Shown: positions 660-18,519 of the stretch, piece after piece
Layout: each line of letters opens with the position of its first letter
Position numbering within the stretch: position 1 is the first letter of the stretch
Source: Nitrososphaerota archaeon
GTDB taxonomy: Archaea; Thermoproteota; Nitrososphaeria_A; Caldarchaeales; Caldarchaeaceae
Reading direction: 5' to 3'
DNA: 64,000 nt
NCBI GenBank assembly: GCA_041641305.1
Contig: JBEPYN010000002.1
Coordinates: 448,001-512,000, forward strand
Made by a program: the position numbers and the translations under genes
The notes under the pieces: generated by a model
Database searches by the model: none
What the model was told of the DNA's origin: nothing
The model's input: only the letters and a program-made list of their open reading frames with translations

Positions 660-731
660 GGATAACCACCTCTAACCATAAACCATATTTTGAAAAAATA
701 TGGAGGGGGTTGGCCCCAACATGTTCACCTA

Positions 732-1175
732 CTAGAATCGGGGCACCTCCCATGGGCTGCTCGGCTGCGGCGGCGTGGTACCAAAGCCAGCGCCTGTCGT
801 GGCCACGGTTGCGGCAAAGTAGAGCAGGTAGACGCCTAGGGCTGCCAGCCCGGCGAGTATCAGGGCGCTGTCAAGAAGCTGGCCGCCGGCGTCCTTGGTT
901 CTATGGCTCCCCGTCGGCAGGAACTTTAATGCTAGACCTGAGCCCAGCAACGCAGCCGCTATCAGGAGCAGGAGCTGCCCAAACCCTGACACCGCGCCCT
1001 GAAACGTGTTGGCTATCGCCGCAGGCCCTCCTCCTTGCCCCGTCTGTTGAGCCATTGCAGCAAGCAGCAGGTGCGCGTTGGCAGCCGCTAGGCTTATGGT
1101 CGTGGTCGCGAGCCGCAGCCTACCGCTTCTCAGCCCTTTTACGAGGTTTGACCCTTTCCGGGTGTGGTGCTTCAT
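732..1175 (-). CDS. CedA1/TedC/VirB2-like pilin precursor
   Basis: Basic leader, then two hydrophobic helices joined by LALKFLPTGSHRTKDAGGQLLDSAL, similar to CedA1-type pilins. ATG 1175 lies ~35 bp from a TATA-like element. Confidence 0.6.
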   Translation of the reverse strand: MKHHTRKGSNLVKGLRSGRLRLATTTISLAAANAHLLLAAMAQQTGQGGGPAAIANTFQGAVSGFGQLLLLIAAALLGSGLALKFLPTGSHRTKDAGGQLLDSALILAGLAALGVYLLYFAATVATTGAGFGTTPPQPSSPWEVPRF

Positions 1176-1196
1176 GGCTTTCTCGAGACCATCCTC

Positions 1197-1588
1197 AAAT
1201 ACGATAATACTTAAGCTTTGGCTGAATCTGAACACTTTTGGTCGGCCACCTAGGTCGGCCAGTTTGGTCGGCCACTCTGGTCGGCCAAAGCTTATAAAGG
1301 AGCATTTTTCATATAACCCCGTTATGGCCGCTTCTTAATATAGCTATGTTCGCATTTTTCGCACTTGGCTCTATAAGCCTTTTATCACCATTTCTTTACT
1401 TTTTAATACTTTTTCAGGAATTTTTTGGTTATCTGGTATTTTTTTGTGTGCAAATTACCTTCCGCATTATTGATAAGCTTATCGGTATGGTTTTTCATGT
1501 TGGTCGGCCACATACTGTATATATTTTTGCTGGTCGGCCAGTTTGGTCGGCCACTCTGGTCGGCCAAAGCTTAAGTATTATCGTGTTT
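1197..1588. promoter_or_regulatory. Divergent control region: 26-bp inverted repeat containing BRE/TATA-like elements plus 8 operator/iteron-like boxes
   Basis: AAATACGATAATACTTAAGCTTTGGC (1197-1222) versus GCCAAAGCTTAAGTATTATCGTGTTT (1563-1588), one mismatch. AT-rich core between the repeat clusters. Confidence 0.7.
1239..1566 (+). repeat. Eight (T/A)GGTCGGCCA boxes, mostly at a 13-bp period
   Basis: Copies start at 1239, 1252, 1265, 1278 and 1501, 1531, 1544, 1557. The box is an imperfect palindrome (TGGYCGRCCA). Confidence 0.95.
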
Positions 1589-1589
1589 T

Positions 1590-2545
1590 AGGGTTGTTGA
1601 ATCCATGCGAGATTCGATGAAGCCTGCGGCTGGCTGAGCCGGGATGGGGCGTCAGCGGAGCGCTCCGACGACGGGGTCCGGCAGGTACCCCGTCGCCCGA
1701 GGGCTGGGCGCCGGCATGCCTGGCCCAAGGTCCCAGGCATTCGCATGGATGAATGCCGAAGCCGGCGATGGATAGGTGGTCCGTGACGGAGAGGGGCTCC
1801 CCGGAGGGTGAGAAAGCCACGCACCACACCCGGAAACCCCGCCCAGGGAACCCCGTAGAATAAACCATCAAGCCCCCATATATTGTTTACCGGGGGTCTC
1901 GGGTGGGGTATATGATGGGTGTCCCGTGAGCGGTCGGGGTCAGGGCCCGGGGTCATCCCGGGTGAGGCTGGATGGTCCAGCAGCCTGCGACGGGTAGCCT
2001 CGGGAGCTTGGCGTGGTCCACCAGAGTATATCCGGGGGATTGTGGGATGATGGCTGGGGCTGGCTCGGCTGCCCAAGGGGGCTGGGCAGGGCTTGGATGG
2101 TTCATCCAAGTGGGTGCTACCCCGCCGGAGCTGGTGCAGCCGGCTGGTGTCCATCCCTTGGACGGTTTATCCAAGGGGGTGACGCCGGCCCAACCCAGAG
2201 CCATTAGAATCACTAGAATGTCCTCTCCGTCTTCTCTGGGCTTCCGCGTCCGGGTTGAAGCCGCCCGCCCAGAAGCCGCTACAGATAACAGCCCCACACG
2301 GACCGGGGTGCGGCGAAGAGGCGGCTAAAGACCCGGGACAAGGGGGAGAACGGTTGGCTGATTCTCCCCGCCATCCCGGAGCCCACACCCGGGAAACTCT
2401 TCCCGGCAACGCCCGTTCACGCGGGCGGGGGGCTCAACAACACAATGCCCCCCGAAGATGCCAGGGAAACTCCGGAGGTGGGCTCTCCGGAATTGTCGTC
2501 CGGCGGGGGGAGACGCCCTCGATGGCCCGTCGGGGTTGCGAGGTG
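1590..2545 (+). ncRNA. Candidate long structured non-coding RNA or leader
   Basis: Starts just downstream of the TATA-like element at 1570-1577. Very GC-rich with nested stems (1601-1610/1741-1750, 1669-1677/1687-1695, 1716-1723/1733-1740, 2092-2110, 2155-2177, several in 2270-2535). No convincing ORF. Confidence 0.45.
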
Positions 2546-2561
2546 AAAGAGAAATGAAGAC

Positions 2562-2813
2562 ATGATGATTCTTTTGCTTGACGGCGGCTCTATCAGTGCA
2601 TCGATAGCAAGCGCTATAAGAGATGTGATTCTGTTGATTTTCGACATCCTGACCCCGATAATCAATATAATCGGGGTCGGCATGATTGCAATAGGGCTCC
2701 TGCTGGGGCTCGGACTCCGGCAGGAGTTCCTCGGCTTCCGATTAGCTATCGGCGGAGCGCTGGCTCTTCTAACTGTCCATGTTCTAGTGCCATTTTTATT
2801 GTCATTCATCTGA
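2562..2813 (+). CDS. Small hydrophobic pilin-like (VirB2/TrbC-like) membrane protein
   Basis: 83 aa, two to three hydrophobic helices, GAGGTGA upstream. Confidence 0.65.
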   Translation: MMILLLDGGSISASIASAIRDVILLIFDILTPIINIIGVGMIAIGLLLGLGLRQEFLGFRLAIGGALALLTVHVLVPFLLSFI

Positions 2814-2997
2814 CTTCTCTGACCTCTTAGCGACCCAAACTCCCCTCCTTTTTTTCCGTGGAGGCTTTCTCCCCCCTTTCGTATTGTCTGTTAGTGTCCG
2901 CCCTCGCGGGCGGAGCCTCCGGTCCCCGAGTCCGGGAGGCTTCCGCCCTTGTGGGGGAGAGGGGCGGAGAAGCCTCCCGGCGGGAGGGGTGAAAGAC

Positions 2998-3135
2998 ATG
3001 AGTGACTTCCAGAAGGTGTGGGGAAGCGAGGACAGCTTCTTAACCTACCAAGCCAAAACTCGGAGGTCATACCTCCGAGTCCGGGCTAGTAGGTGGGAGG
3101 AGCTCGTCCTCCATCTCCAGAACCAGCTCTTTTGA
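2998..3135 (+). CDS. Small hypothetical protein (45 aa)
   Basis: GGGGTGA RBS then ATG 2998; followed by a C-rich/T-run terminator-like tract. Confidence 0.5.
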   Translation: MSDFQKVWGSEDSFLTYQAKTRRSYLRVRASRWEELVLHLQNQLF

Positions 3136-3273
3136 CTGGCTGTGACAGCGCCAGCCAGCCAAAACACCCCTTCTTTTTTTCCTTCATATGCCCATACGCC
3201 TGAAACATGGCGTCCACCCCATAATCATTAAATGGGGTGGCGGGGGTGGTTGGCTGGCTCGCGCCTGGCTCCA

Positions 3274-3557
3274 TGCCCGTGTGCTGGGGCTGCATAGGCC
3301 TTGCCCGTGAGCGGGTCTATGCATCCTGCGCCCTATACACCGGCCACCCCCGCAGGGTCTTGCCCGTGTGCGGGCCCTGTGGTGAGCTTGCCCGTGAGCG
3401 GCTCCGGTGTGTGGGGGGCCTGCTTGCCCGTGTGCGGCGGCTGTCTGCAGGCAGGCGCTTGAGGCGGGTGACAGGGATGTCTCCTGCACCATGTGTTTGC
3501 CGGACTTGCCCGTGAGCGGTCGGCATACATGTGGGGAGCCTTCCTGCCCGTGCGCGG
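3274..3557 (+). repeat. Seven TGCCCGTG(A/T/C)GC(G/T)G direct repeats, irregular spacing
   Basis: Copies at 3274, 3302, 3361, 3389, 3425, 3507, 3545. Confidence 0.9.
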
Positions 3558-4199
3558 TTGGCTCCAGCGGGAGACACCCAAGCAGACGACATACAGACGA
3601 TGTTCAGAGGTTGTTCAGATGCTCCGCCAAGGAAGCTCTCGGAGCCATCTTATCCATGGGAGAGGCATGGTGTCTCTTCCATGGGCTTACTCTATCAAGG
3701 CGCCGTGGGGGTGCTTTGATGGAGAGGCTCCTAGCCCTGTTGGCGGAGACAGGTGACGAATAATGCTTCCGAATATTTCTGACGACATCCCCGAAGATTG
3801 ACACTGGTTCCATGGATTAAGCAGCCGATTCAACAATACCTAGGAGATACAGAGGTTCAAGGTATTCTGATAAGCAGTCGGATGACTCTAGATAACTACA
3901 ATGGTCTCAACAGGTCTCTAATAAACGCCGACAAAAACAGGTCAAAGACTATCAACGATACTTAGCACCTCCCTCGGCGGGCCAACCCCGGGAACAGGGG
4001 CTGGGAGGATGCGGAGACTCTCCCGGGCCGCATAGGCCCGCCTCCCCACAAAAACACGGGGAGGGAAGATGACCCTCCAAATCCTCCAAAAAATCCCCTG
4101 GCTCCCGGGGGTAAGGTCTGGATGGCGACCAGGGACTCCGCGGATGGGCGGGTCCGACCCGTCCGTGGAAACACTGCCCATCGGCCATATGGTGTGGGG

Positions 4200-4466
4200 G
4201 TGCAGAAGAAGTTGACAAGTAGTCTGCTGGTACCCGGATTGATAGCTCTGGCATTGGTCTATGGGATACAGTTGGTCAACGAGGGGCATCTGTTCGAAGG
4301 TGTTCTGTTGATGGTTGTAGGTATCTTTGGCGGAGTGTATGCTGAATACCTTCTGCAGAGATGGCGCATGAGTTACTGTGACTACTGCGGGGGCAAGATG
4401 AGGAAAGATGTCGGCGGACTATACTACTGCGACAGATGCAGACGCTTCGCTCCTCGACGGGCCTAA
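4200..4466 (+). CDS. Two-TM membrane protein with C-terminal Zn ribbon
   Basis: GTG 4200; two TM helices; CDYC...CDRC. Confidence 0.7.
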   Translation: MQKKLTSSLLVPGLIALALVYGIQLVNEGHLFEGVLLMVVGIFGGVYAEYLLQRWRMSYCDYCGGKMRKDVGGLYYCDRCRRFAPRRA

Positions 4467-4480
4467 GAGGGCGTGCAGGC

Positions 4481-5944
4481 ATGTGGGCTAGAGTTTTTGT
4501 GACACTGATAATCATCTTTGGCTTCGTAGGGTACGCTTGGTATGCAGCCATGTTAGCCTCTCAGAGATTGTTTGAACGTGGAATCATCAAAGAATCACCT
4601 ATGCCAACAATAGATGTCAAAACAATAACAACACAGGTGGCTCAGTACACAGGCATCGCTGTAACCCTGCTAATGATAGCCATTGTGGTAAAGAGGGTCG
4701 TTGAATCGGGTAGACTTCTGGGCGTCATTAAAGTCTCCGACCTTCAGAGGCATCTACTACTGCTTGGACCAACCGGTAGCGGCAAAACAAACACTGCTAA
4801 ACAGGCGATTGCCTTAGCCGTACGTCGTGGTGTCAGGGTAATCGTCATCGACTGGAAAGCCCTCTTCTCTCCGCCAGCGTTTTTCACGTCTCCCCAGCTC
4901 AGTTCCGCCGCATAGGGTTCGCGTGGAGCTTCTGGCGGAGCTGGGAGGGCCCAGAAAGGCGAGTACGTTAACTTCATCAAGGGAGCCTCCGTCGTCAGGA
5001 AACTCAACGTGTGGGACAACGGTGGTAGGTCGCCGAAGGAATGCGCTGTCCTCGCTGTCGAGACATTGAGAGAAATTACACGCGATATCGCAGATGTTTC
5101 ATCCGCCAGCGCAGCCCTTCTCCTGAGGGAGCTTGTAAAGCTCTACGGGAGAGGGGTGCCGAAGACATCCGACGTAGTTTCAGCTCTTGAGAAGTTCATA
5201 AACACCGCAATGGCGGAGCGGAGACTTGCCGAGGCGAATATGGCTTCTGCATTGCTTAGAAGGATGATGTGGCTCCAGATAGACGAGGAGAGGCCTGCGA
5301 AGAACATCATAGGCTCTGACAGGGTTGTTGTCTACGACTTATCAGAGCTCGGAAGCGTCTACCTGAAAACCATCTACAGCCTCAGCATCCTTTCAAAGAC
5401 CTACTACGGGGCCCTTAGACAGGGACAGTCCCAGAAACTAGAGACGCTGGTGATTGCAGAAGAGTGCCAAAACTACATACGTGGTAGGCGTTTCGACGAG
5501 CCTCCGTCGATTGGTGAGAGAATGGCTAACGAGCTGAGGGCCTACGGCGTCGGCATGGTCCTGATAAGCCCGGACCCTGTCCAGATACCCTGGCACCTCG
5601 CCAGAGACGTTGCAGCAGTAATATCCATAGGACTTCAGGCGATACCCGACAGCGTCAAGGACCTGTTGAGAACAATTGACCCCAAACAGGCGAAGAGAGT
5701 AATGATGGGTAAGAAGGCCTACGTCTATTACAACGGCAAACTGAAGACAGCCTCTCCGCCCAAGCCTCCAAAAGAAATAGAACTAAACGTTGACGTAAAA
5801 GAGGTGATTGAAGAGACTAAGCCTGAGGAGACTGTCGAGACTACTGCTACACAACCAGACAACTCTGGGGCAGAGGAGAGTGTTCAGACAATGCCGATAG
5901 AGCAGAAGGAGCCTTTGGAGGAGGCCCAGAGAGGCGTGAATTGA
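4481..5944 (+). CDS. Membrane-anchored HerA/VirB4/CedB-like ATPase, spliced join(4481..4857,4957..5944), 454 aa
   Basis: Two N-terminal TMs, Walker A GPTGSGKT, IDWKGEY restored by splicing, Walker B LVIAEECQN, ELRAYGVGM motif. Confidence 0.85.
4858..4956 (+). other. 99-nt archaeal-type pre-mRNA intron (bulge-helix-loop) in the ATPase gene
   Basis: Central helix CTGG 4852-55/CCAG 4951-54; AAA at 4856-58 and 4955-57; inner stems GCCCTCTT/GGGAGGGC and CTCCGCCAG/CTGGCGGAG; in-frame TAG at 4913-15. Confidence 0.85.
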
Positions 5945-5990
5945 TAGAGAGCCGGGGAAACCTCCTCTAAGGCTTGAAGAAGATGAAGAG

Positions 5991-6755
5991 ATGGTCGATG
6001 AAGACGAAGAGCAGGTGACAGAGGCCCCGCATGGGCGCATACCCCCACGGGAGGGAGTCCCGCCAAGATGATGTGGTGGTTGTGAGCGCCCCGGGAAAGC
6101 CGAACCACAGACACAACAAGAAAAAGCAGAAGAGGAGCAGGCAGATGAAACCACTGGTGGATTCCCCCTCCACGGCCACATGGTCGTGGAGGAGGCTTTC
6201 GCTGACGAGTCGGTTCTACGATGTGTTAGATGTGGGGCTTCGGCCTCGCTGACAGAGGCTACACAACTCATGGAGAAGCCTTGCCAAGAACCTCGAATGA
6301 CGCAGGATAACCTTCAGACCCGGTGCGGATGTGGACGGCCGGCGACAAAGCTTATGCCGTCATACGACCCGATAACCATGACGTTTAAAGACCTCTGCCT
6401 GTGCGACGGCTGTGCCAACGACTACCTCAACATCCTCAGGAGGTCAGGCCCAGCCCTAGGCAAGATGAGGGGGAGAATACCTGCGAACGGCTATTGGTTC
6501 AACCTTTACAACACCGTCTTCCAGGAGCTGGCTGGGACATACCCGTGCCCAGCCTGCGACCAGTTCTTCGACGACCTGTATTCCGCGGTCAAACACTTCG
6601 GCGAAAAACACATCGACAAGACAAAGACTCCAGAGGAGGTTGTCATAGACGGGGTTCCCGCCCTTAGGACATGGCAATACATATGGTGTACAAAATGTCT
6701 GAGGTTCTTCGAGAACGAGCGACATTTCCGTTCACATCTCCGAGACCATAGGTGA
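5991..6755 (+). CDS. Multi-Zn-finger protein with acidic N-terminus, spliced join(5991..6031,6098..6755), 232 aa
   Basis: One frame interrupted by a single TGA inside a BHB-bounded insert. CxxC motifs and C2H2-like fingers (CPAC...HFGEKH, CTKC...HLRDH). Confidence 0.75.
6032..6097 (+). other. 66-nt canonical BHB pre-mRNA intron
   Basis: Outer GGC 6023-25/GCC 6099-6101; central CCCG/CGGG; bulges CAT 6030-32 and AAA 6096-98; inner GGGCGC/GCGCCC; in-frame TGA at 6069-71. Confidence 0.8.
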
Positions 6756-7120
6756 AGCAGATGAAGTTCAGGGGAAAAATTTACAGGGATGGGGGAAGGC
6801 TGAAGCTGGTCTTTGACAAGCCCCTCCCGCGTGGGAGGGTGACGCTGCTGCTGACGAGGGTGGACGGAAAGGCTATGGAGTTGAAGTTCGATACAATGAT
6901 AACCAACAACGACCCCTATCGATTAAAGTGTCGGTTGCCACCGTTCCCGGAGCTGAGGCCCGGGGCGGTGGTCGAAGGAATAATCGAAGACGAGCTTAGA
7001 TGCCGCTGGTGCGGAGCCAAGTGCTCCGCACTCATCAACAACCTCTGCGACCATTGTTTCGAGGTATTCAACAGCCCCTACAAACCCCCTCTGGGAGAGG
7101 GTTGGGGAAGGCTGACGTAG
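6752..7120 (+). CDS. Hypothetical protein with C-terminal Zn finger
   Basis: GTGA overlap with the upstream stop; CRWC...CDHC. Confidence 0.7.
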   Translation: MKQMKFRGKIYRDGGRLKLVFDKPLPRGRVTLLLTRVDGKAMELKFDTMITNNDPYRLKCRLPPFPELRPGAVVEGIIEDELRCRWCGAKCSALINNLCDHCFEVFNSPYKPPLGEGWGRLT

Positions 7121-7285
7121 ACCACCGGCCAAAAACCCCAACCTCCGGGCGGTGACCCGGGGTAAAACCCGGGCGCCCCCGGCTATTTTTTCCAAGGGGC
7201 GTGTCCCGTCGGGAGCTTTCCCGGCGGGGCATGCGCCCCCTTGGCCGGGAGGCTCCCTAAGAGGGCCGCTCCGGAGGTCTAAAAA

Positions 7286-8221
7286 ATGGGCAACAACGAG
7301 AAGTGGACTCTGCCGGTGGTCTATGGAAACCGGAGGGTTCGTAGGGAGCTCATCGAGGTGCTGATGACTGTTGAAGAGTACAACGGATACACGGTGCTTT
7401 ACCTATGGTTCCACTTCCCCTACGACTGGTTTACAGCGCTAAAACCCTATGACTGGGAGCCTGTTGCAATAGCGTTCAAAGACAGCCGACCCGCCAGAAT
7501 CTTCTGGAGACCTCACTGGGCGCTTAGATGCACACGGCCTGTACTTGTGGATAAGAAGACTGTTGTCTTCTACATAAGCCCCATCAAGGGAAACGCTCCG
7601 AGATGCTCCCACTTCGATGTACTGCGGTCCATACTGGAAGACCCGTCGACCTACGGAATACCTTATCGAAAGTTCAAAGAGCTACCGCTGAAAAGCCTTC
7701 TGAAGGATGGGTGGCCGCCCGAGCACGAAGCCCGCGCCGAAAGCTTCAGAGAATACGTTCACCGAGGCCTTGAAGACATAAAAAGATGCGGGGGCGTATA
7801 CAGCGTGGTAATGGGCTTCTTCACAGACCTCCTCAGGGCCTACCTTATGGCTAGGAGGAGAAACCTCGACGGCTTCTACTATTATCTTAAGACGGCATGG
7901 GAAAACACCACAGAGAGGTTCAGGAGGAGCGGACCCGGCTACGAGATGTACAACCTACTCGTCGCCGTCAAGTACCTGCTGATGCTGCAGAAAGCGACTG
8001 GTGAAGGGCCGACGGAGCGGTTCTGGCGGGACATGGAAGGCGACCCTATCCTTCCCCCAGTGGTTAGAGCGTTGACAGGCCACATCTGGTACCCCATAGG
8101 GTTGCTGATAGCAGATGGGTATACGCCAGCCCAGCCGTTCAAAGACTTCGTTGATAAAAAATGGAGACAATGGTTCAGAGACGCCCTCAAAGCCTGCAAT
8201 AAACACGCAAACGAAGCCTAA
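7286..8221 (+). CDS. Hypothetical protein (weak NPP1/Vps62-like YLWFHF..DW..DWEPV motif)
   Basis: 311-aa ORF with GGAGGT RBS; family assignment is tentative. Confidence 0.75.
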   Translation: MGNNEKWTLPVVYGNRRVRRELIEVLMTVEEYNGYTVLYLWFHFPYDWFTALKPYDWEPVAIAFKDSRPARIFWRPHWALRCTRPVLVDKKTVVFYISPIKGNAPRCSHFDVLRSILEDPSTYGIPYRKFKELPLKSLLKDGWPPEHEARAESFREYVHRGLEDIKRCGGVYSVVMGFFTDLLRAYLMARRRNLDGFYYYLKTAWENTTERFRRSGPGYEMYNLLVAVKYLLMLQKATGEGPTERFWRDMEGDPILPPVVRALTGHIWYPIGLLIADGYTPAQPFKDFVDKKWRQWFRDALKACNKHANEA

Positions 8222-8584
8222 ACCCCCCACCTTTTTTCCAAGCCACGTGGTCCCGTCTGGGGTTTTTCCCTGGGCGGGGCCATGTGGCTCCGCTCCGGGG
8301 GAGGCTCCATGATGGGTTGCGGCGTCCAACGCCCCTGTGACAGTCCCCGAGGCGTGTGAGCGCGTAGGGGATGAGGGGCGAGGGCCTGGCCGCCTCCTCC
8401 ACGTGGAGGCCGGGGTTTGACCAAGCCCCTTTCCCTCGGGCGCCATGCAGAGGGTTTGGGAGAGGTGTGGCTGAACACCGTGTTCCTATTCCCCTCATCA
8501 GGGAGGGGTGTCGGGGCACGGCTAGTAGGCCATGCTTCCCCAAATTCCTCTGCGTGGTTGTCGGAAAAAGGGGCTGGGGAGGTG

Positions 8585-8695
8585 ATGGATATGAAAAACT
8601 GGAAGAGGTGTTTAAAATGCGAAGAGTTGAACGACATAAACGCAGCATTCTGCCATTACTGCGGTAGAACGTTAGAAGACGCGGAGGAGGTCTAA
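8585..8695 (+). CDS. 36-aa Zn-ribbon protein
   Basis: GGAGGTG RBS; CLKC...CHYC. Confidence 0.65.
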   Translation: MDMKNWKRCLKCEELNDINAAFCHYCGRTLEDAEEV

Positions 8696-9001
8696 ATGTA
8701 CCTAGTGAAGCTGCACACGGACCTTCGGGTACAACGACTCGTCTCGCGACCAGTGGAGATATTCTTTGGAGACTTGGTGACGACGATACCGAAGTCGGCT
8801 ATAGTCTGCGATGCATGCAACCAACAGGTCGCAGTCACGGAGCAGGACCTGAAAAACTTAGCGATGGGGTACGCTGTTGTAGACGGGGAATTCATCCTAG
8901 AGGTCGTATGTGAGGAATGCAGACAGCGCTACTTCGACGACATCCCGGTGTTCGACACATTAGAGGATGCCGAGGAGGTCTACGAGAAGAAGGTGAGGTG
9001 A
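8696..9001 (+). CDS. Zn-finger protein (paralog of next ORF)
   Basis: CDAC...CEEC; abuts the upstream stop. Confidence 0.75.
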   Translation: MYLVKLHTDLRVQRLVSRPVEIFFGDLVTTIPKSAIVCDACNQQVAVTEQDLKNLAMGYAVVDGEFILEVVCEECRQRYFDDIPVFDTLEDAEEVYEKKVR

Positions 9002-9003
9002 AG

Positions 9004-9285
9004 ATGGAGTTCCTAGTTTCGCTATTTACTGACAAAGAGCTCTTGAAAAAACTGCTGACCCCAAAGATTGTCATTAATGATTATGGTTACACGATTGTTC
9101 CGGCTAGGCTTGAATGCAGCCACTGTGAGCAGAAACTGCCTGTGAGGGAACCGGGAGGCTTTGCCCTCTTTGACACGGAGGGGACTCTATGGGAACTACT
9201 ATGTGAAGAGTGTAAGCAACGATTCCATTCAGGAACACCGGTTTACGAAACTTTGGACCAAGCTATTCCAAAGCAGAGGTGGTGA
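9004..9285 (+). CDS. Zn-finger protein (paralog of previous ORF)
   Basis: GAGGTGA RBS; CSHC...CEEC...PVYETLD. Confidence 0.75.
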   Translation: MEFLVSLFTDKELLKKLLTPKIVINDYGYTIVPARLECSHCEQKLPVREPGGFALFDTEGTLWELLCEECKQRFHSGTPVYETLDQAIPKQRW

Positions 9286-9287
9286 AG

Positions 9288-11088
9288 ATGGTCAGGGTAG
9301 TGGAGCTTCGGGAGGAGACTGAGCTTCTAGAAAAACTCAAGAATCGCTTTCCACACACTAGTCTACGTAGATATCAGGCCGACATCGCTAATAGGGTCTA
9401 CGAGAGCCTTTCCAACGGCTCTAGCATTCTTCTGGAGGGCCCTACGGGGCTGGGGAAGAGGCTATGAGGAGACTGTTTATGGGGGGTGGTTGGCTGGCTG
9501 GCGTCTCCGAGCCTCCTATACAGCCCCTGTATGGGCCGCGGTGAGCGCCTACGCGGAGGAGAAAGGTCTGAGGGTTCTATGGCTCACCCGGACGGCGTCC
9601 CAAGTAGCTCACATCGCCAGCGAGATAGGATGCATGCCCATCTACGGCCGCCGGCTTCTCTGTATCCATGAGACGGTTAGCAAGGTTGAGCAGAGACGGT
9701 TCAACGCGGCTTGTAGAGTTGTACGACTATCCGGACGTTGCTCATACTATCCCGGAAGGCCTAGCCAAATAAAGGCGAAGACTGTTGGAGAGATTAAAGA
9801 TGCCGGTAGGAAGTCGGTCACATGTCCCTACGAGCTTCAGCTGACATCGATGCCATACTCGACGTCGCTGGTCGCCACCCATAAACAGTTGTCTGTAGTT
9901 TCCTGGCTTTTGGCAAAATGGCGTTGGACCCGCGAGCGAACCATCTTGGTGCTCGACGAGTTCCAGAACATCTTGAAGACTGTTCTCGACCTCTCAAAAG
10001 ACGCCATAAGCCTGGCAACGCTCCACAAGGCCGCCGCAGAGGCAGCAAGGTATGGCTTCAGGGATATTTCCAGCAGTCTTTCAGAAGCTTATCAAAGATA
10101 CAAGGCGGTTGACGTTGACGAGGCTGAGGTAGAAAACCTACTGCCCAGCTTCGAAGAGCTCTTCGAGGCGGGGCAGGAGATACAGGCTAGGAAACTTGAG
10201 GAGAATGTTGTACCCGCCAGCTATGTGTTGAGCGTCGCAGACTTTAAGGCTGCTCTCGGCCAGCAGAAGCCCCTCCTAGTCAGGGAGGGTGAACGGGTTT
10301 GGCTGGAGGCGCTAGCAGACCCACGCGAGGAGCTTGAAAAGATTCTCGAAGGCTGGAGAACGGTCATAGCTATGACGGCCACGATGGATGCGGAACTCGT
10401 TGAACGCATGGCTTCAACCCAAGTGACGCTGTTGCGAGCAGGGTGGCCCTTCGACGATAATCTGAAGGCATACATTGTCAGCGGCCTTACGACGAGATAC
10501 AGGGACAGGGATGTGGAGCTCTATGAAGATGTCCGATGGCTTATAGAACAATCTCATGGAATGAGGACTCTCGTCTTCCTACCCAGCTATGAATTTGCTT
10601 CAATGATTCAGAAGAGGCTTAGCGACGCTATCGCCGAGCAACGGGGGATGACGCAGGAACAGGTGGAAGCCACGGCCGCTGAATTCGCGGAGGGTGGAAA
10701 AACGCTTTTAGCCGTCTTCGGTGGAAGGCTGGCAGAGGGCATCAACCTCCAAGCCGACTTGGTTATGCTGGTGGGCATACCATTCGCGAAACCATCACCG
10801 CGAACAAAGAAGCTCGAGGACAAGCTTGAGAATGTCTTTGGGAGCAGTGACCTTTCCCGGCTACATGGACTAGTTTTACCGGCCCTCTTTGCCGCCGTGC
10901 AGGCCGCCGGTAGGGCTGTCAGAGGCCCCAATGATAGGGCTCTGGTCCTGCTCGTCGACGACAGATACCGCCGTTTGACAAAACACTTGCCCAGATGGTT
11001 CAGAGACTTGGTCTCAGATAAGCCGGTCAAGCTCACAGATGTTCCCATTCTATTGGATGAGTGGTTGTCATGGATGAAGAGCGTTTGA
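9288..11088 (+). CDS. XPD/Rad3/DinG-family Fe-S DNA helicase, spliced join(9288..9458,9520..11088), 579 aa
   Basis: Q motif RRYQ, Walker A GPTGLGKT restored by splicing, four Fe-S cysteines, LDEFQN, GRLAEGIN, QAAGRAVRG. Confidence 0.9.
9459..9519 (+). other. 61-nt canonical BHB pre-mRNA intron in the helicase Walker A motif
   Basis: Outer GGGGCTG 9446-52/CAGCCCC 9521-27; central GGGA/TCCT; bulges AGA 9457-59 and ATA 9518-20; inner GGCT/AGCC and GGAGAC/GTCTCC. The insert causes a stop and a frameshift. Confidence 0.92.
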
Positions 11089-12512
11089 GACACGTTCTTG
11101 AACGCATCCGCAGACAGAACATCAACTACGTGAAGCTCAGAGGACTTGTCAGCCGATTCATGACTCTCAACCCCGAGGCAGACCCAGAAGCAATAGATTG
11201 GACAGCCGTCTACGATGACTCCCTAAGCTACGACGAACTCGTCGAAGCATTTGAAAAAGAGTATCCCATGTACCGGTGGCGTGAGACAGCTCCCGCAGAT
11301 GACAAACAAATCGAGGACATGCTGGTGAACCATATCCTCAACCAGGTCGAGGACCTTACAGAAGAGTCTCTCAAGTCGCTCGTCAATGCCTTGGAGGAGC
11401 GGCTGGAGGCTCTACGGCAGGCCGAAACCCCGGCATCTCCGACGGAGCAACAACCCGAACATACACAGATGCAACATCCTCAGCACCAACCGCCGACTAT
11501 GACTGAAAACATACAACAGCCAGCGCCACAGCCGAAGGTAACCCTCAAGCTTCTCGCATCCTACCCCTTCCTAGCGGAGGCTAGGGAGGTGGTTAGGGGC
11601 GTGAGCTTCGAGGGTTTACCCAGGGCGGTATACAAAAGAGCCCGGGAGAGGCTAATGGAGGCTCTCGAACGGGGAGAGCTGGGGGTTGTTCCCCGGCTCG
11701 ATGAACCGTTCGTGGAGCTTCTCTCCTTTCCCGTGGCGAAGGCCGTTGTCCACACAATCGACGACGACTGGCTGAAAAGGCGATGGGCCCTCGCAGAGTC
11801 AGCGAGGGTCGAGAGGCTTCTACTGAAGGAGAATGCGGATGTCTCAGAATGGCTCCTCTCCCGGCTACTTGAGGTCAGGCGAGAGGGAGAGGAGTATGCG
11901 CTGAGGTTCACTGATTACCTAAAGCTTGCTGAAGGCCTTACCACCGATATCTCATGGAAGCTAGTAAACCAAAAACTGCATCGAGGCTGGGTCTTCATAA
12001 CAAAGACTCGTCTCATACGACTCATCAGACAAAAACTCTACCAACTTCTCTATAACAGCTTCCAGCAGACGCCCAAACTGACAAAAATACCTCAACAAAT
12101 CGCCGAAATGGTCGCCGACATAACCGAGGAGCTCCAAAAAATCAAAGCCCGGGCAGGACGGGTCACACCCGTCAAAGGCGCAATACCGCCCTGTATGAAG
12201 ACGATTAGCGATAGGCTGGCGGACGCCAGCCACACAGAGAACTTCGTATACGCCGCCTACTTGGTCAATACGGGATACAGCATCGAGGAAATCGTTGATG
12301 TCTTTAGGAAGAGAGCTGACTTCGACGAGAGGATAGCACGGTATCAGATAGAGCATATAGCGGGGCTGAGGGGGAGCCGTGTGAAATACCGGCCACCTTC
12401 ATGCTCCCGCATGCGGGAACTCGGACTATGCATCGAGAACGGAAGACTATGCCCACCGAATATCCACAACCCACTACAATACCGACCTAGACAACAGCGA
12501 CAACCCACCTAA
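11070..12512 (+). CDS. DNA primase large subunit (PriL)-like protein with ~150-aa N-terminal extension
   Basis: LASYPFL, W.LVNQ.L..GWV, and an Fe-S C-terminus PPCM...DFDERIARYQIEHIAG...YRPPSC...GLC...C...NPL. Confidence 0.85.
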   Translation: MDEERLRHVLERIRRQNINYVKLRGLVSRFMTLNPEADPEAIDWTAVYDDSLSYDELVEAFEKEYPMYRWRETAPADDKQIEDMLVNHILNQVEDLTEESLKSLVNALEERLEALRQAETPASPTEQQPEHTQMQHPQHQPPTMTENIQQPAPQPKVTLKLLASYPFLAEAREVVRGVSFEGLPRAVYKRARERLMEALERGELGVVPRLDEPFVELLSFPVAKAVVHTIDDDWLKRRWALAESARVERLLLKENADVSEWLLSRLLEVRREGEEYALRFTDYLKLAEGLTTDISWKLVNQKLHRGWVFITKTRLIRLIRQKLYQLLYNSFQQTPKLTKIPQQIAEMVADITEELQKIKARAGRVTPVKGAIPPCMKTISDRLADASHTENFVYAAYLVNTGYSIEEIVDVFRKRADFDERIARYQIEHIAGLRGSRVKYRPPSCSRMRELGLCIENGRLCPPNIHNPLQYRPRQQRQPT

Positions 12513-12667
12513 ACACCCCCTATTTTTTCTTTCCCCGATAGGAGGCCCTTTCCGCCGCTCTCCGGCGGGAGGGGTTCCTCCTGTCGGGGAGAGGTGGACT
12601 CAGGCCTCCCGGGAAAGCCATGACATTAAGTCATGGTACCGGACCCGGCCACCGGGGTAAAGGTGGC

Positions 12668-13066
12668 ATGGACTCGTCTCCCGAGAGGCTGTTTGATGAC
12701 TCGGGAGCGCCCGCGGTTCCAAGGCCCGCCGCGGGCGACAAGTGCCAGGGCCTGAGTTCGGGGGGTGGTTCGACTTATGAGCGTCTGCTGGAGCGCTACG
12801 GCGGCTTCTTCGAGGAGCTTGGCTATGGTTGTCTCGCCAGCTTTAAGCATCTGATTGAGCAAGTGGAGGTGACTATCGATACGGCGACATCTAATGATGT
12901 CAACCTGTTTGCTAAGCTCCATGTGCTAAAGTCTGCGAGGGCCTCGGTAGAAGTATTTACGGAGTATTATAGTCGATTCCTGCCACCTACTGTCGTCAAT
13001 AACCTGCGAGCTGACCTGACATTTCTGCTTGAGCGTGCTGAGGAGGTGGTGTTGACTTTTGGCTGA
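12668..13066 (+). CDS. Hypothetical protein
   Basis: AGGTGG RBS, ATG 12668; overlaps the MTase start. Confidence 0.65.
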   Translation: MDSSPERLFDDSGAPAVPRPAAGDKCQGLSSGGGSTYERLLERYGGFFEELGYGCLASFKHLIEQVEVTIDTATSNDVNLFAKLHVLKSARASVEVFTEYYSRFLPPTVVNNLRADLTFLLERAEEVVLTFG

Positions 13067-13970
13067 ATTCATAGACCCCACCATTCTGAAAGGGTGGTGG
13101 GGTTCCGAGGAATACCAGAGGCTGTTATCCTTCGAGCCGGAAAATGCAGGTGACTACTATCGGTTACCATTCGCCAAATACAACGAGCTCTTTCCGTTCA
13201 TCAAAGTCAAGATTGAGCACCCTGCAGTGATGAACCCATACTTGGCGATTTTCCTTTGGCGGCGTTACGTAAAACCAAATGATGTAATAATCGACCCTAT
13301 GGCTGGGATAGGGGGTACACCCGATATGTAGGGGCCCAGCTTTATCCCAGCCATAGCCTGCAGATTGACCAATGATAACCACTTAATCCTCAACGATATT
13401 GAGTCGACTTACGCCAGACTCTCTGAGGAGCTTCTTTCGGAGATGCTGGTCGTTACTAATCACAGCACCCTGCTGGACGTCTACAACGTAAACGCTGCCT
13501 CTCTTTATGAACTTCTTAGACCAAGAGGACTTGCTGGAGGCGTACGGAGGAGGGTTATTATTACCTCTCCTCCGTATGGCCTCCTCAGGCCCTGTGATAG
13601 CTTCAGCCCGAGGTTTGGCAGACTGACGGTAACTTCCGCCGGTAACCTTAGCGTGATAACCGGTAAACACTTTAGGGCGGCTTGGCTGGGCGTGCTGACT
13701 TCGATGTATCTCTGTCTCAACCAGTTCCATAGAAACCGTGACTTGGCTGTGATTGTCCTCAAAAACTTCAAGAATAACAATGTGGAAAAGGCTGTTGGAA
13801 AAAACCTCGTCAATTTAACGGTTGAACTCGCGGAGTTCGTTGGATTCAAACATCTCGAGACGCTGAAGTTCAAGATTTCAGGCAGCCACTTCGCCAGATA
13901 CCACGACATCAAGCAACATGTCCATGACCTCTGGCACGAATATGCGCTGGTCTTCCGCAAGGTGGTGTAG
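13059..13970 (+). CDS. Amino (N4-C/N6-A) DNA methyltransferase, spliced join(13059..13318,13340..13970), 296 aa
   Basis: HPA motif, SAM-binding IIDPMAGIGGT, catalytic IITSPPY. Both ORF halves are in one frame, separated by a TAG inside a BHB insert. Confidence 0.85.
13319..13339 (+). other. 21-nt canonical BHB pre-mRNA intron next to the SAM-binding motif
   Basis: 16-bp outer helix CTATGGCTGGGATAGG/TTTATCCCAGCCATAG; central GGGT/GCCC; bulges ACA 13317-19 and AGC 13338-40; inner CCC/GGG; in-frame TAG at 13329-31. Confidence 0.9.
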
Positions 13971-14819
13971 ATGAGGATTTTCGCTGATGTTCATAGGAAA
14001 AAGGATGACAGCGGCTACCGCATCACATATACAACTGACGGCGAAGTCTTTAAACACGTTGATTCTCCGATGGACATCCCCGCGCAGGCAGGAGACGAGG
14101 TATTCGTTGACACTATACCGATAATCCACACCGACGCATTCATAGAGCTACTGAGGAGAGGTGTAGAGGTCTATTATCTACGAAGACTCTCACTTATTGA
14201 AAAGACAAGACAGAGACTGGGGATACCGAAGTCAGCCAAAAATGACGTAAAAATTCTGATGAACATTGAGAAGAAATGGTTCAAGAGAGTTGACGAGGAC
14301 TTCTTGAGCATGCGTCAGATTATTTCGGCGTTTAGGAGATTGGATAGAGACAAACAGAGGTTGGAGAACCAGTCTAAGGACGTGCCGGAGATTACAAAGG
14401 AAAGCTTCAGGAGGCTCATAGACCATACAGAGGAGGAGAAGTTGGTAATAGCCAAACCAATAGTAGAAGAAGCAGAGAAGAGGCTTTCGTTATTTAGAGT
14501 AGTAGCGCAGGAGCTGGGTGTTGCAGACGATAATCATTCGATGGGAAGAGAGGCACTGGCCGAACTACTGACATACGTAGACTTCAGCAAATCCTTCAGA
14601 AAAGTCAGAGAGTATCTCGGACTCTTCAGAAACCCGAAGACCAAAAACATGAGATACAGCCACAGTTCTAGGAAGGCGTTGAACCGTCTAACAATGTCGC
14701 TGACGGGCAGAGAGCCAAAAGCAGAAGACGAGGAAACAATAGCTTTCAAGATATGGCTGACGTTCCGACGGGAAAACCAAAAGAGGCTGGCGGGCATACC
14801 GGCCCAACAACAGGGATAA
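13971..14819 (+). CDS. IS110-related RuvC + coiled-coil + Nop-like protein (TasR-like)
   Basis: IFADVH, VFVDT and KSAKNDV resemble the IS110 RuvC acidic motifs. F.KSFRKVREYLGL...RYSHSSRKAL resembles the IS110/Nop C-terminal domain but lacks the (Q/S)SG serine loop. Confidence 0.7.
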   Translation: MRIFADVHRKKDDSGYRITYTTDGEVFKHVDSPMDIPAQAGDEVFVDTIPIIHTDAFIELLRRGVEVYYLRRLSLIEKTRQRLGIPKSAKNDVKILMNIEKKWFKRVDEDFLSMRQIISAFRRLDRDKQRLENQSKDVPEITKESFRRLIDHTEEEKLVIAKPIVEEAEKRLSLFRVVAQELGVADDNHSMGREALAELLTYVDFSKSFRKVREYLGLFRNPKTKNMRYSHSSRKALNRLTMSLTGREPKAEDEETIAFKIWLTFRRENQKRLAGIPAQQQG

Positions 14820-14910
14820 AACCCATAGGCCGGTATGTCATGTTATAAAACGAACTGGCTCTCTTGCCAGTTATGTCCCAACCTTTAACGACCGGCCTCT
14901 TTTTGGGTTT
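14819..14910 (+). ncRNA. Candidate dual-guide RNA (tigRNA/bridge-like)
   Basis: Stem AGGCCGGT/ACCGGCCT, apical stem AACTGGC/GCCAGTT, and a symmetric internal loop with two copies of ATGTC-N9-AACG; outer AAACCCA/TGGGTTT. Confidence 0.65.
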
Positions 14911-14948
14911 CCTAGGTGTTGTTTGGTGGTTGCCTGCCAGCCAACCAT

Positions 14949-14990
14949 CCCCCTATTTTTCCCTTCTTTTTGTGATGTTTTTTGTTTATA
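14949..14990 (+). terminator. Archaeal oligo-T terminator-like tract at the element end
   Basis: CCCCCTATTTTT followed by further T runs; similar tracts at 2843-2855, 3165-3180, 7185-7191, 8223-8237 and 12514-12528. Confidence 0.55.
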
Positions 14991-15017
14991 TCATGGGTGT
15001 GGGGTGTTTTCGGGGGT

Positions 15018-15460
15018 ATGGTCTCTGAGCTTGGTTATGGTGGGTTTGTTGCGGAGGTGTTGAGTGGGCTTGGTGTGGGGTTGGGTGATGAGGTTGAGGT
15101 TGTGAGAAATGGGCTGCGGCTCCGCGGGTTTGTGATTGCGCGTTACGAGTATGGGGCGCCTGATGTTCTGGTTTTGAAGCTTTCGAACGGCTACAACATA
15201 GGTGTGCGCATCGATGCCTCTACACAGATACGTAAGCTCTCCTCAGCCGTCGCGCCATCTTTCAACCCACCTCCACCCGCCCAGCCTCGGGAAAACCTGC
15301 CCCGCGTCATGATTGCCAACACAGGCGGCACCATAGCCAGCAGAATAGACTACAGGACAGGAGGAGTTAAACCCACTCTCACTGCATCGGACCTCGTCAG
15401 CATAGTTCCCGAAATCGCGGAGAAAGCAAACGTCTCAACCGAGATTCTGATGCAGGTTGT
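15018..15460 (+). pseudogene. gatD: 5' fragment of Glu-tRNA(Gln) amidotransferase subunit D
   Basis: VLKLSNGYNIG and TGGTIASRIDYRTGGV are GatD motifs. Similarity stops at ~147 aa, where the next gene's promoter begins. Confidence 0.85.
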
Positions 15461-15490
15461 GAGTATGTTTATAACATCATCCAACACAGC

Positions 15491-16417
15491 GTGTCCATGG
15501 TTGTTTTCTTTGGAGCAGTCATTCCACGCTATGACGTGGATTTTAGAAAAGTTGTGGACACGGTTTTGATGTTTGAGGAGCTTGGTTTTTCCTCGCTCTG
15601 GGTAACTGACCACATGCAGCCCCGCCGCGCCTCACGCATCCTCGAGTCATGGACGCTTCTCTCAGCGCTTGCGCCTGTGACGGATGCGAGACTGGGAACG
15701 GTTGTCCTATGCTCATGCTACCGCCACCCCTCTCTTCTCGCGAAAATGGCCGCAACCCTCGACATCATCAGCAACGGACGCCTCGAGCTCGGCGTTGGAA
15801 CAGGGTCGGAGCCACAGGCCGAGGAGCTAGAGGCCCTTGGAATGGAGACATGGAAGCCCAAAGAAAGAATTCCACGTCTGCGAGAATATGTTGAGGTGCT
15901 GCGGCTGCTGCTTTCCGACGGCGACCCCGCCACCTACCAAGGCAGGTTCTACACGCTCAAAAAAGCGATGCGCAACACGCCCACGGTCCAGAAACCACAT
16001 CCACCCATATGGATAGGTGCGCGAAAAGGGAAAATGGTTAAGCTGGCGGCCGAGATAGGCGATGGCTGGAACTTCTACGGCGAAACACTGACAGAATACA
16101 GAGAGGCCGTCAAACATTTTGACGAAGAATGCGACAAGCTAGGCAGAAGACCGAGCAAAGCAATCTTCACAAACCTCCTAATCTACAAGGATGAAACGGA
16201 CAAGAGGGAGAAGATAAAGCACCTCGGCGCCTTCGAAACCGAGGAACAAGCCCTGCGCAAAACCTTTACACTCCTACACGGAACCCCTGACCAAGTCATC
16301 AAACAGGTTGAGGAGCTACAGAGTCTCGGCGTCGGACTCGTCATCCTACGAGACATGGACCCAGAAACATCAAGCATAAAAGACTTCGCCAAAGAAATCA
16401 TCCCATCCTTCAAATGA
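15491..16417 (+). CDS. LLM-class (luciferase-like, probably F420-dependent) oxidoreductase
   Basis: LWVTDH, RHPSLLAKMAATLD..SNGRLELGVG, PVQKPHPPIWIG-like motif. Confidence 0.9.
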   Translation: MSMVVFFGAVIPRYDVDFRKVVDTVLMFEELGFSSLWVTDHMQPRRASRILESWTLLSALAPVTDARLGTVVLCSCYRHPSLLAKMAATLDIISNGRLELGVGTGSEPQAEELEALGMETWKPKERIPRLREYVEVLRLLLSDGDPATYQGRFYTLKKAMRNTPTVQKPHPPIWIGARKGKMVKLAAEIGDGWNFYGETLTEYREAVKHFDEECDKLGRRPSKAIFTNLLIYKDETDKREKIKHLGAFETEEQALRKTFTLLHGTPDQVIKQVEELQSLGVGLVILRDMDPETSSIKDFAKEIIPSFK

Positions 16418-16461
16418 GCCAGCACAGAACAAGACCCGCCCACATCCAGACAAACGCTAAG

Positions 16462-16914
16462 TCACCCGACGTAGACCGCGCTTAACCCTTCACTCAAGGC
16501 GATATCACATAGTTTCCTGTCAGCGACTACTATTTGATCAGCGGATACATATTTCGCGGACGTTATCTGCAGCGCGTCAGCCTGGTAGATATGATGTTTC
16601 TCTATAAGCTTCCAAGCATCTCTCAATATGGAAAACCTTAGATGAATTATTGTTAGTGCGCCGAGCCTCGTCAACCGGTTCAGCTCGTTCAAAAATCTTC
16701 TCTTGGCCGCGACACGGTCCTCTTCACTTCTCCTGCCTATTGTATAGGCTTTATCAAGAACTCCCAACATCTCGCCTATATTCCATACGCTTGACGCGAG
16801 CTTCGCCCCGCCCGCGTAAGCGCTTCTATACAGCGACCTGACGAATTCGCTGCCGGGCTTATCCACGTATCTCTTGACGATTGCACTAGTGTCCAGATAA
16901 ACTATCTCTCTCAT
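16462..16914 (-). CDS. vapC: PIN-domain VapC toxin
   Basis: YLDTSAIVKRY, ADALQ, ADRKL. Confidence 0.9.
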   Translation of the reverse strand: MREIVYLDTSAIVKRYVDKPGSEFVRSLYRSAYAGGAKLASSVWNIGEMLGVLDKAYTIGRRSEEDRVAAKRRFLNELNRLTRLGALTIIHLRFSILRDAWKLIEKHHIYQADALQITSAKYVSADQIVVADRKLCDIALSEGLSAVYVG

Positions 16915-17158
16915 CCCTCATCTCTCTGACGAGACCACTTACTAATCCTGTGGCCGGCTTCACAGGCTCAAAATCAAGCTCTATCTCCCCCTGTTCAGCT
17001 AACTCCTCCAAAGCGGCCTGTAGATCTATCATCAGCTCCTCGCGCATCAGCTCTTCGAGCAAAACACTAACCTCCCTCTCCTGTTCTGCGGCATACTTCT
17101 TGAACCTACGCCAAATCTCACCGTCGACGTATACGCTGCTTTTCACCTTAGATGACAT
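16886..17158 (-). CDS. RHH antitoxin (VapB-like)
   Basis: KSSVYVDGEIWRRFKK RHH motif; overlaps the vapC start. Confidence 0.8.
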   Translation of the reverse strand: MSSKVKSSVYVDGEIWRRFKKYAAEQEREVSVLLEELMREELMIDLQAALEELAEQGEIELDFEPVKPATGLVSGLVREMRDERDSLSGH

Positions 17159-17372
17159 CTTTCGACTAATAGTATACCTTGTCGGCATATAAGCTGTTCG
17201 GTACATCGGTCTTTACCTACATAAAACAAAGACTCCCCATTTTGAGGTGAGTACATAGACCCAATAAATCACCAAGTCGTGGATGCAGTCAACACATGTG
17301 TTTTTTTATGTCCATGGATGGTTATCGTGGTTTTTTGTAATATTTATTAAACGGGCTCGTATTACAGAACCC

Positions 17373-18037: not shown

Positions 18038-18099
18038 CTGAAAAAATTTCAGTTATTGCCCGGCGCGAGCTTAAATTATTCCCCTGCAGAAACATAGTT

Positions 18100-18516: not shown

Positions 18517-18519
18517 AGG

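What the first reader, a model, noticed from the sequence alone, without database searches (positions are those of the whole stretch)
4481..13970. Mobile element whose genes appear to need tRNA-type (BHB) pre-mRNA splicing: four introns in ~9 kb
Seen: four element genes (ATPase, Zn-finger protein, XPD helicase, DNA MTase) each carry a 99, 66, 61 or 21 nt insert with a stop or frameshift. Each insert sits in a 4-bp helix with two 3-nt bulges. Cutting after the second nucleotide of each bulge, the known rule for archaeal EndA, restores the frame every time and rebuilds IDWKGEY, GLGKT and DPMAGIGGTF. The inserts are unrelated in sequence and have no target duplication, apart from the AAA(G) overlap in the ATPase. 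Known: archaeal mRNA introns are rare, and cbf5 is the standard example. Inference: transfer, replication and methylation functions depend on host EndA plus RtcB. This could be a regulatory switch, a host-range filter, or a way to disrupt conserved target sites. Standard annotation would call these pseudogenes.
Basis: partly seen in the sequence, partly recalled or inferred. Interest (0 to 1): 0.97.

Follow-up and report, generated by a model that had tools for sequence, protein, structure and literature searches.

The report
Six spliced introns in archaeal island
Three protein genes and one small gene on a mobile-looking DNA island of a hot-spring archaeon carry six short tRNA-type introns, and environmental RNA shows some of them being cut out, a process that the papers I could search report inside only one other archaeal protein gene.

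Summary
Confirmed and extended. All four inserts are present and form bulge-helix-bulge (BHB) motifs. I found two more (5932-5959, 7082-7109), so there are six in 8.5 kb. Homologues without the insert join exactly at the BHB cuts. Homologues with an insert keep the site but vary in length and sequence, with compensating changes in the helix. The exons are under purifying selection. Metatranscriptomes show the joins that skip 66 and 61 nt, the 61-nt intron as a circle, and 28-nt gaps that fit the two new introns. The ATPase join is supported only indirectly; the methyltransferase join was not seen. One correction: the 'Zn-finger gene' is the last exon of a three-intron, 693-aa ATPase-linker-Zn-finger gene. 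Relatives without the helicase Walker A intron mostly carry one that splits the start codon instead. The host (Caldarchaeales) has a two-subunit EndA, RtcB and the classic cbf5 intron. That EndA does the cutting is inferred. Whether the introns are a selected switch or persistent passengers is open. The scan has noted single introns of this kind in other archaea; my look-ups found no earlier cluster like this one.

The parts
4481..4857 (+). Exon 1 of the ATPase-linker-Zn-finger gene: hydrophobic N-terminus and Walker A of a HerA/TrwB-like ATPase
   Evidence: Pfam DUF87 and TrwB_AAD_bind
4858..4956 (+). Intron 1, 99 nt, in DW^KGEY; relaxed BHB with no adjacent exon helix; in-frame stop
   Evidence: Intron-less homologues and 79-156 nt variants at the same site. 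An RNA contig starts matching at 4954 after 17 unmatched letters, as a spliced contig would (indirect)
4957..5931 (+). Exon 2: ATPase core and acidic linker
   Evidence: dN/dS 0.07-0.12 against intron-bearing relatives
5932..5959 (+). Intron 2, 28 nt, new; degenerate central helix on an 11-15 bp exon helix; removal puts the ATPase in frame with the Zn-finger part. The exact cut may be 1-2 nt further left
   Evidence: An RNA contig has a 28-nt gap within 5844-6030 and also the 66-nt skip. Variants of 25, 29 and 34 nt, one with a canonical central helix. Any 28-nt removal starting at 5910-5944 gives 693 aa
5960..6031 (+). Exon 3, 24 codons of linker
6032..6097 (+).
   Evidence: Spliced join in an RNA contig, and a circle of a variant closing at 6032; the same site in relatives
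6098..6755 (+). Exon 4: Cys/His-rich Zn-finger domain, C-terminus of the 693-aa protein
   Evidence: Weak zf-C2H2; a 753-aa intron-free fused homologue exists
6752..7120 (+). Small Cys-rich ORF; splicing shortens its C-terminus
7082..7109 (+). Intron 4, 28 nt, new; canonical BHB; its flanks resemble the start-codon intron of the helicase in relatives
   Evidence: The only 28-nt window in 6455-7120 with a full central helix and both flanking helices of 4 bp or more. Two RNA contigs are 28 nt short here, one resuming at 7110. Variants of 29 and 31 nt
9288..9458 (+). XPD/Rad3-like helicase exon 1, ending at the Walker A lysine
9459..9519 (+). Intron 5, 61 nt, in GLGK^T; frameshift and stop; K-turn-like motif beside the BHB (seen by eye); holds an 18-nt motif also found at the unit's ends
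   Evidence: Spliced join in a contig and in 3 raw reads; circle 9519 to 9459 in a contig and in 4 raw reads with 4 starts
9520..11088 (+). Helicase exon 2; the spliced protein is 579 aa
   Evidence: Pfam DEAD_2 and Helicase_C_2; uninterrupted homologues of 574-582 aa
11061..12512 (+). Primase large subunit (PriL); no intron detected
13059..13318 (+). Methyltransferase exon 1, ending in SAM-binding motif I
13319..13339 (+). Intron 6, 21 nt, in GGT^F; canonical BHB on a 16-bp exon helix; in-frame stop
   Evidence: Intron-less homologues L013, L014, L016, L019; variants of 20 nt (L008) and 18 nt (L111) with a changed helix. No RNA join seen
13340..13970 (+). Methyltransferase exon 2; the spliced protein is 296 aa
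   Evidence: 74% identical to L008 with synonymous sites saturated
13971..14819 (+). IS110-like recombinase/transposase candidate at the right end; further copies in the genome
   Evidence: Atlas look-alike clusters with DEDD_Tnp_IS110 and Transposase_20 on 19-44% of members (a lead only)

Best explanation
The + strand operon of an accessory, mobile-like element of a Caldarchaeales archaeon is transcribed as a pre-mRNA with six BHB introns. The host tRNA-splicing endonuclease cuts after the second base of each bulge, and RtcB joins the exons and circularises the intron. Splicing assembles a 693-aa ATPase-linker-Zn-finger protein from four exons, completes the helicase Walker A and the methyltransferase motif I, and trims a small ORF. 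Shown: inserts, structures, homologous intron-less joins, covariation, exon selection, RNA joins for introns 3 and 5, a circle for intron 5, and gaps of the right size for introns 2 and 4. Inferred: that EndA and RtcB are the enzymes, that introns 1 and 6 are spliced, and that the proteins are made. Why the introns persist is open. My estimate: a near-neutral ratchet (cheaply spliced, hard to lose precisely) 40%; a selected gate on expression 35%; spread by homing in trans 15%; other 10%. Either way, output of the full-length proteins depends on host splicing.
For:: more than 65 helicase homologues have exactly 78 nt across the site; the window has 78+61 and relatives 78+61, 83, 94 or 96. One search, a homology-based insert finder blind to structure: 65 of 166 frame-breaking inserts carry a BHB at the breakpoints against 3 for the mirror geometry, and 1 of 397 in-frame inserts (loci are related, so not independent); the central helix covaries, e.g. 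helicase GGGA/TCCT, GGTA/TGCC, GGCA/TGCC; dN/dS 0.07-0.45 in ATPase and helicase exons; joins skipping 66 and 61 nt, circle 9519 to 9459, stranded reads on the + strand; no near-identical DNA held shows the joined forms of introns 2-6, and the 15 listed members of the 90% helicase cluster are 532 aa or shorter; linker BHBs fuse ATPase and Zn finger in 23 of 39 distinct loci against 4-5 for decoys; an intron-free 753-aa fusion joins exactly at both predicted linker cuts; two EndA subunits, the catalytic one closest to PDB 3ajv and 3p1z (from memory, the Aeropyrum two-subunit enzyme), and RtcB; host cbf5 carries a 14-nt intron inside the catalytic Asp codon, the position given in PMC2738675.
Against: The RNA data are environmental and shallow (3 and 4 raw reads). 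Logan contigs can include DNA, and no DNA run was laid. The ATPase join is indirect and the methyltransferase join is unseen. Intron 2 has two mismatches in its central helix, and the position of its gap was not printed. The Zn domain against L109 gives dN/dS 1.1. L127 may show that an intron-free element exists, so splicing dependence may not be obligatory in the family.
Confidence: 0.88

Rival explanations
1. Selected regulatory gate: the element keeps its ATPase, helicase and methyltransferase off, or truncated, until host splicing allows them. Partial splicing of the linker would give ATPase forms with and without the Zn finger.
For: Almost every helicase copy with a complete 5' region has either a start-codon intron (38 by a strict score, 55 by a loose one) or the Walker A intron (10-11), never both; 2 had neither. 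Unspliced products lack a start codon or a complete motif. A K-turn-like motif flanks the BHB in four lineages (by eye). The ATPase and helicase introns of the window and L007 are 97-98% identical inside genes that are 60-75% identical.
Against: The start versus Walker A split follows the tree and amounts to one or two events (quick tree). No condition-dependent data. Other lineages lack the K-turn. An intron-free fusion exists (L127). Covariation only shows that splicing must work, not that the intron is useful.
Confidence: 0.35
2. Selfish mobile mini-introns spread by a homing endonuclease acting in trans.
For: Several sites are in conserved motifs (Walker A, Q^AAGR, PRW^F, motif I). Islands of intron identity look like short conversion tracts. 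Earlier scan notes describe endonuclease-linked mini-introns in other archaea (not checked here).
Against: No LAGLIDADG match lies in the island. LAGLIDADG-like genes in related loci are free-standing, two of the three beside tRNA genes. Three sites lie in a variable linker or a gene tail.
Confidence: 0.15
3. Pseudogenes broken by hairpin insertions, with the RNA joins coming from intron-less DNA alleles.
For: No DNA run was laid; gene callers report fragments; intron-less relatives exist.
Against: Low dN/dS between intron-bearing copies; the same sites kept with covarying helices across about 40% protein divergence; circular junction reads at the exact ends; all near-identical DNA assemblies that cover a site carry the insert.
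Confidence: 0.04
4. The introns protect the element by breaking CRISPR or nuclease target sites, or restrict it to hosts with a broad-specificity EndA.
For: Introns 1 and 2 are relaxed motifs, and PMC6379350 links relaxed motifs to the two-subunit and epsilon types of EndA.
Against: None of 115 host spacers matches the element or a junction, apart from one 21/23 chance-level hit. Four of the six motifs are canonical.
Confidence: 0.08

Closest known systems
cbf5 pre-mRNA BHB intron of Desulfurococcales and Sulfolobales (Watanabe 2002; Yokobori 2009, PMC2738675)
   Same: Short, ORF-less, frame-breaking insert in a coding sequence, bounded by a BHB and often inside a conserved motif. The host has this intron too.
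   Different: cbf5 has one intron (16-44 nt in that paper) at one site in a core gene. Here six introns of 21-99 nt lie in one accessory operon, three in a single gene. The family has at least nine sites, one of which splits a start codon, and splicing fuses two apparent ORFs.
HVO_1309 5' UTR BHB intron of Haloferax volcanii (PMC7714728)
   Same: EndA-processed mRNA; removal appears to matter for expression.
   Different: Untranslated region, single intron, chromosomal gene.
Archaeal tRNA and rRNA BHB introns, including relaxed hBH/HBh' motifs (PMC6379350)
   Same: Same motif and cut rule; the excised intron is circular.
   Different: The substrate is mRNA; no homing endonuclease ORF as in long rRNA introns.
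Thaumarchaeal integrative-conjugative and cryptic integrated elements (PMC6563490)
   Same: HerA/VirB4/VirD4-like ATPases, membrane proteins, ParB and helicases in an accessory region.
   Different: No tyrosine integrase or tRNA att site found; an IS110-like gene at the end; a word search of that paper found 'intron' only twice, and the passage shown concerns tRNA genes.

Membership tests
Archaeal BHB (EndA-type) intron | 4-bp central helix with a 3-nt bulge on each strand at the exon-intron borders | tested here: met
   Introns 1, 3, 4, 5 and 6. Intron 2 is degenerate in the window but has a canonical central helix in L126
Archaeal BHB (EndA-type) intron | Cut after the second base of each bulge gives the functional exon join | tested here: met
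   Matches intron-less homologues and RNA joins for introns 3 and 5
Archaeal BHB (EndA-type) intron | Excised intron is ligated into a circle | tested here: met
   Join 9519 to 9459 in a contig and 4 raw reads; variant circles for introns 3 and 5
Archaeal BHB (EndA-type) intron | Spliced RNA for every one of the six introns | tested here: inconclusive
   Direct for 3 and 5; gap size for 2 and 4; indirect for 1; none for 6
Archaeal BHB (EndA-type) intron | Cleavage by EndA and ligation by RtcB | not testable with these tools
   Both enzymes are encoded by the host; activity not tested
Homing-endonuclease mobile intron | Endonuclease ORF in or beside the intron | tested here: not met
   only LAGLIDADG was searched by profile
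Group I or group II self-splicing intron | Ribozyme core of sufficient size | tested here: not met
   Inserts are 21-99 nt; no Rfam match except a tRNA in 1-20000
Integrative-conjugative element | Conjugation-type ATPases and membrane proteins | tested here: met
   Three HerA/TrwB-like ATPases, a 1328-aa protein without a Pfam match, and a weak CedA1 hit in a homologue
Integrative-conjugative element | Integrase and att repeats | tested here: not met
   No PF00589 match in a 99% complete genome; no att repeat found; serine recombinases not searched
Integrative-conjugative element | Excision and transfer | not testable with these tools
   Only patchy distribution and variable flanks

The most novel reading that the evidence does not exclude
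A family of archaeal mobile elements uses the host tRNA-splicing machinery as a selected control layer: multi-exon genes, a start codon made by splicing, and alternative splicing of a linker that yields ATPase forms with or without a Zn-finger domain, possibly tuned by a protein that binds the K-turn or the element-end motif inside the helicase intron.
Probability: 0.3. Interest if true: 0.95.

Novelty: new variant of a known kind. Interest (0 to 1): 0.86.

Why it matters
The papers I could search name cbf5 as the only archaeal coding sequence with a BHB intron, plus one 5' UTR case (PMC7714728). This locus shows a three-intron, four-exon archaeal gene, six introns in one operon and at least nine sites in the family, with RNA support. 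It makes exon-intron gene structure, domain fusion by splicing and possibly alternative splicing testable in a prokaryote, using short substrates and an enzyme type already purified from other archaea. Intron-bearing and intron-free alleles at each site offer a natural series for studying intron gain and loss. It also means that standard annotation misreads such genes as fragments.

Tried and rejected
A loose genome-wide BHB scan gave as many hits for decoy geometries, and so did a structure-only scan of the island; structure alone is not evidence here. Folding z-scores are mixed, from -0.8 to -3.2. A separate Zn-finger gene starting at 5940 was rejected: L007 has no ATG, GTG or TTG in that frame, and relatives fuse the domain to the ATPase. 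A 29-nt or 31-nt cut for intron 2 was considered; the RNA gap is 28 nt. A C/D-box guide RNA in the helicase intron was rejected by inspection because there is no room for guides, and Rfam found nothing. No CRISPR spacer hits. No related loci in viral contigs. A search for longer proteins with the Zn domain found none, but the ATPase query found one. The representatives search was still queued and was not collected. The intron-free PriL control for dN/dS failed on a naming error. The tree is the quick version only. Joined proteins could not be sent for folding or remote searches. Five literature searches found no report of this family; most subscription journals are not covered.
Full report
Setting. 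The window is G000:C2:448001-512000 of a 1.66-Mb genome that is 99% complete. The closest helicase homologues are named Ca. Caldarchaeum or Aigarchaeota, so the host is a Caldarchaeales archaeon. The finding lies in a + strand operon: HerA/TrwB-like ATPase, Zn-finger region, small ORFs, XPD-like helicase, PriL, a methyltransferase and an IS110-like gene. Upstream, on the other strand, are two more HerA-like ATPases, a 1328-aa protein without a Pfam match, ParB, a DEAD-box helicase and RadA-like genes. The helicase matches 9 of 150 related genomes, three only weakly, and the right flank differs between strains. No tyrosine integrase or att repeat was found. I therefore call it a mobile-like island, not a proven ICE.

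Observation. Each has a complete 4-bp central helix and two 3-nt bulges, and cutting by the known rule restores the frame. Frame restoration alone proves little, because shifted cuts of the same length do so too. Structure alone is also weak: loose scans gave equal numbers for decoy geometries. A stricter scan that requires two coding pieces to be joined ranked three of these introns 2nd to 4th in the genome and also recovered the cbf5 intron.

Homology. More than 65 helicase homologues have 78 nt across the Walker A site, and the intron-bearing ones have 78 plus 61 to 96 nt. The ATPase and methyltransferase sites behave the same way. An insert finder blind to structure, run over 110 loci, found a BHB at the breakpoints of 65 of 166 frame-breaking inserts (mirror geometry: 3) and of 1 of 397 in-frame inserts. 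The others look mostly like alignment artefacts. These loci are related, so the counts are not independent. Intron interiors differ while the central helix covaries with the exon's third codon position. Exons of intron-bearing copies show dN/dS of 0.07-0.45 where dS can be estimated, and synonymous sites are often saturated; the Zn domain against L109 is an exception at 1.1.

Corrections to the anatomy. The 66-nt intron lies in an acidic linker. None of 48 loci encoded ATPase and Zn finger as one ORF, but removing one or two linker BHBs fuses them in 23 of 39 distinct loci, against 4-5 for decoys. A 753-aa intron-free protein with both domains exists, and its joins equal the predicted splice products base for base at the cut; whether that contig is DNA or RNA is not known. 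In the window the fusion needs a further insert at about 5932-5959, which relatives carry as 25, 29 or 34 nt. The product is 693 aa. A sixth BHB lies at 7082-7109.

RNA evidence (two assembled and two raw metatranscriptomes). Stranded reads cover the + strand at low depth. One contig skips 66 nt at 6031/6098 and has a 28-nt gap within 5844-6030, with no other differences there. The 61-nt skip appears in a contig and in 3 raw reads. The circular join 9519 to 9459 appears in a contig and in 4 raw reads with 4 starts. Two contigs are 28 nt short around 7082-7109, and one resumes at 7110. One contig begins matching at 4954 after 17 unmatched letters, which is where a spliced ATPase contig would begin, given the three shared bases; the letters themselves were not shown. 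No methyltransferase join was listed. No DNA run was laid, but no DNA that I hold has the joined forms of introns 2-6, and near-identical assemblies keep the inserts wherever they cover a site.

Machinery. The host encodes two EndA subunits. One has the Tyr, His and Lys motifs and best matches PDB 3ajv and 3p1z, which I recall as the Aeropyrum two-subunit enzyme; PMC6379350 describes that type as able to cut relaxed motifs. RtcB is present in a 975-aa frame with the domain split in two, probably by an intein (inference). Host cbf5 has a 14-nt BHB insert inside the catalytic Asp codon, as in PMC2738675. That these enzymes act on the island's introns is inferred.

The family. Further sites occur in relatives: two more in the helicase C-terminal part and one that splits the helicase start codon, AT^G. 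Among helicase copies with a complete 5' region, 55 carry the start-codon intron by a loose test (38 by a strict one), 11 carry the Walker A intron, none both and 2 neither. This fits selection for splice dependence, but it follows the tree and may be one or two events.

Why they persist. Covariation shows that splicing must work, not that the introns help. A near-neutral ratchet explains varied interiors and scattered sites. A selected gate explains positions that destroy activity when unspliced, the K-turn-like motif in four lineages and the unusually conserved introns shared with L007. Homing lacks an endonuclease in or beside any intron. Defence evasion has no spacer support.

Comparison and verdict. 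The inserts work like, and meet the testable defining features of, archaeal BHB introns. The published coding-sequence case is cbf5, with one 5' UTR case in Haloferax (PMC7714728). Earlier scan notes list single introns of this kind in at least 66 genomes and one more in this genome; these notes are unchecked, except that one search recovers a matching 27-nt candidate. What is new here is the cluster, the four-exon fusion gene, the start-codon intron in relatives and direct RNA support. New variant of a known kind; interest 0.86.

Noticed in passing
window 3150-3167 (-), 3245-3262 (+), 9485-9502 (+), 14932-14949 (-): An 18-nt motif occurs at both ends of the unit and inside the helicase intron; genome-wide it is otherwise found only beside other copies of the IS110-like gene (pattern chosen after seeing it). 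It may be an end signal or a protein-binding site.
   Followed up: partly
window 13971-14819; G000 C1 about 439900-441700 and 515850-518250; C2 about 514900-519300: The IS110-like gene has further copies, and two of them lie with pieces of the unit's left end, like shorter derivatives.
   Followed up: partly
window 3500-4050 and 12559-12590: Much higher RNA depth in non-coding stretches, mostly from related sequences; possibly small RNAs of the IS110-like family.
   Followed up: no
window 7160-7290, 8215-8345, 12505-12630: Related G+C-rich hairpin units preceded by a T run sit between genes; they may be terminators or cassette borders.
   Followed up: partly
window 14985-15463: A partial copy of the 5' part of gatD, 87% identical to the copy on C1, abuts the right end.
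   Followed up: no
G000 C1:76821-76834 (L117): Host cbf5 carries a 14-nt BHB intron at the known position, in a lineage not among the passages I read of the 2009 survey.
   Followed up: yes
G000 C1:429820-429846 and C1:542269-542303: Further candidate coding-sequence BHB introns of 27 and 35 nt in host genes.
   Followed up: no
L065, L067, L069, L070, L081, upstream of the helicase: The start-codon intron is about 110 nt here and holds a second BHB-like hairpin, possibly a nested intron.
   Followed up: no
window 5900-7100 against L007; 9520-11300 against L109: Mosaic identity: blocks of 90-100% identity begin next to introns, which suggests crossovers at the conserved intron flanks.
   Followed up: partly
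L095 (G009 C1 about 905270): A divergent helicase homologue in the same genus has no start or Walker A intron but a one-base frameshift.
   Followed up: partly
window 19143-19249: An intron-containing tRNA-Arg(CCG), missed by the default tRNA scan but found with the intron option and by Rfam.
   Followed up: no
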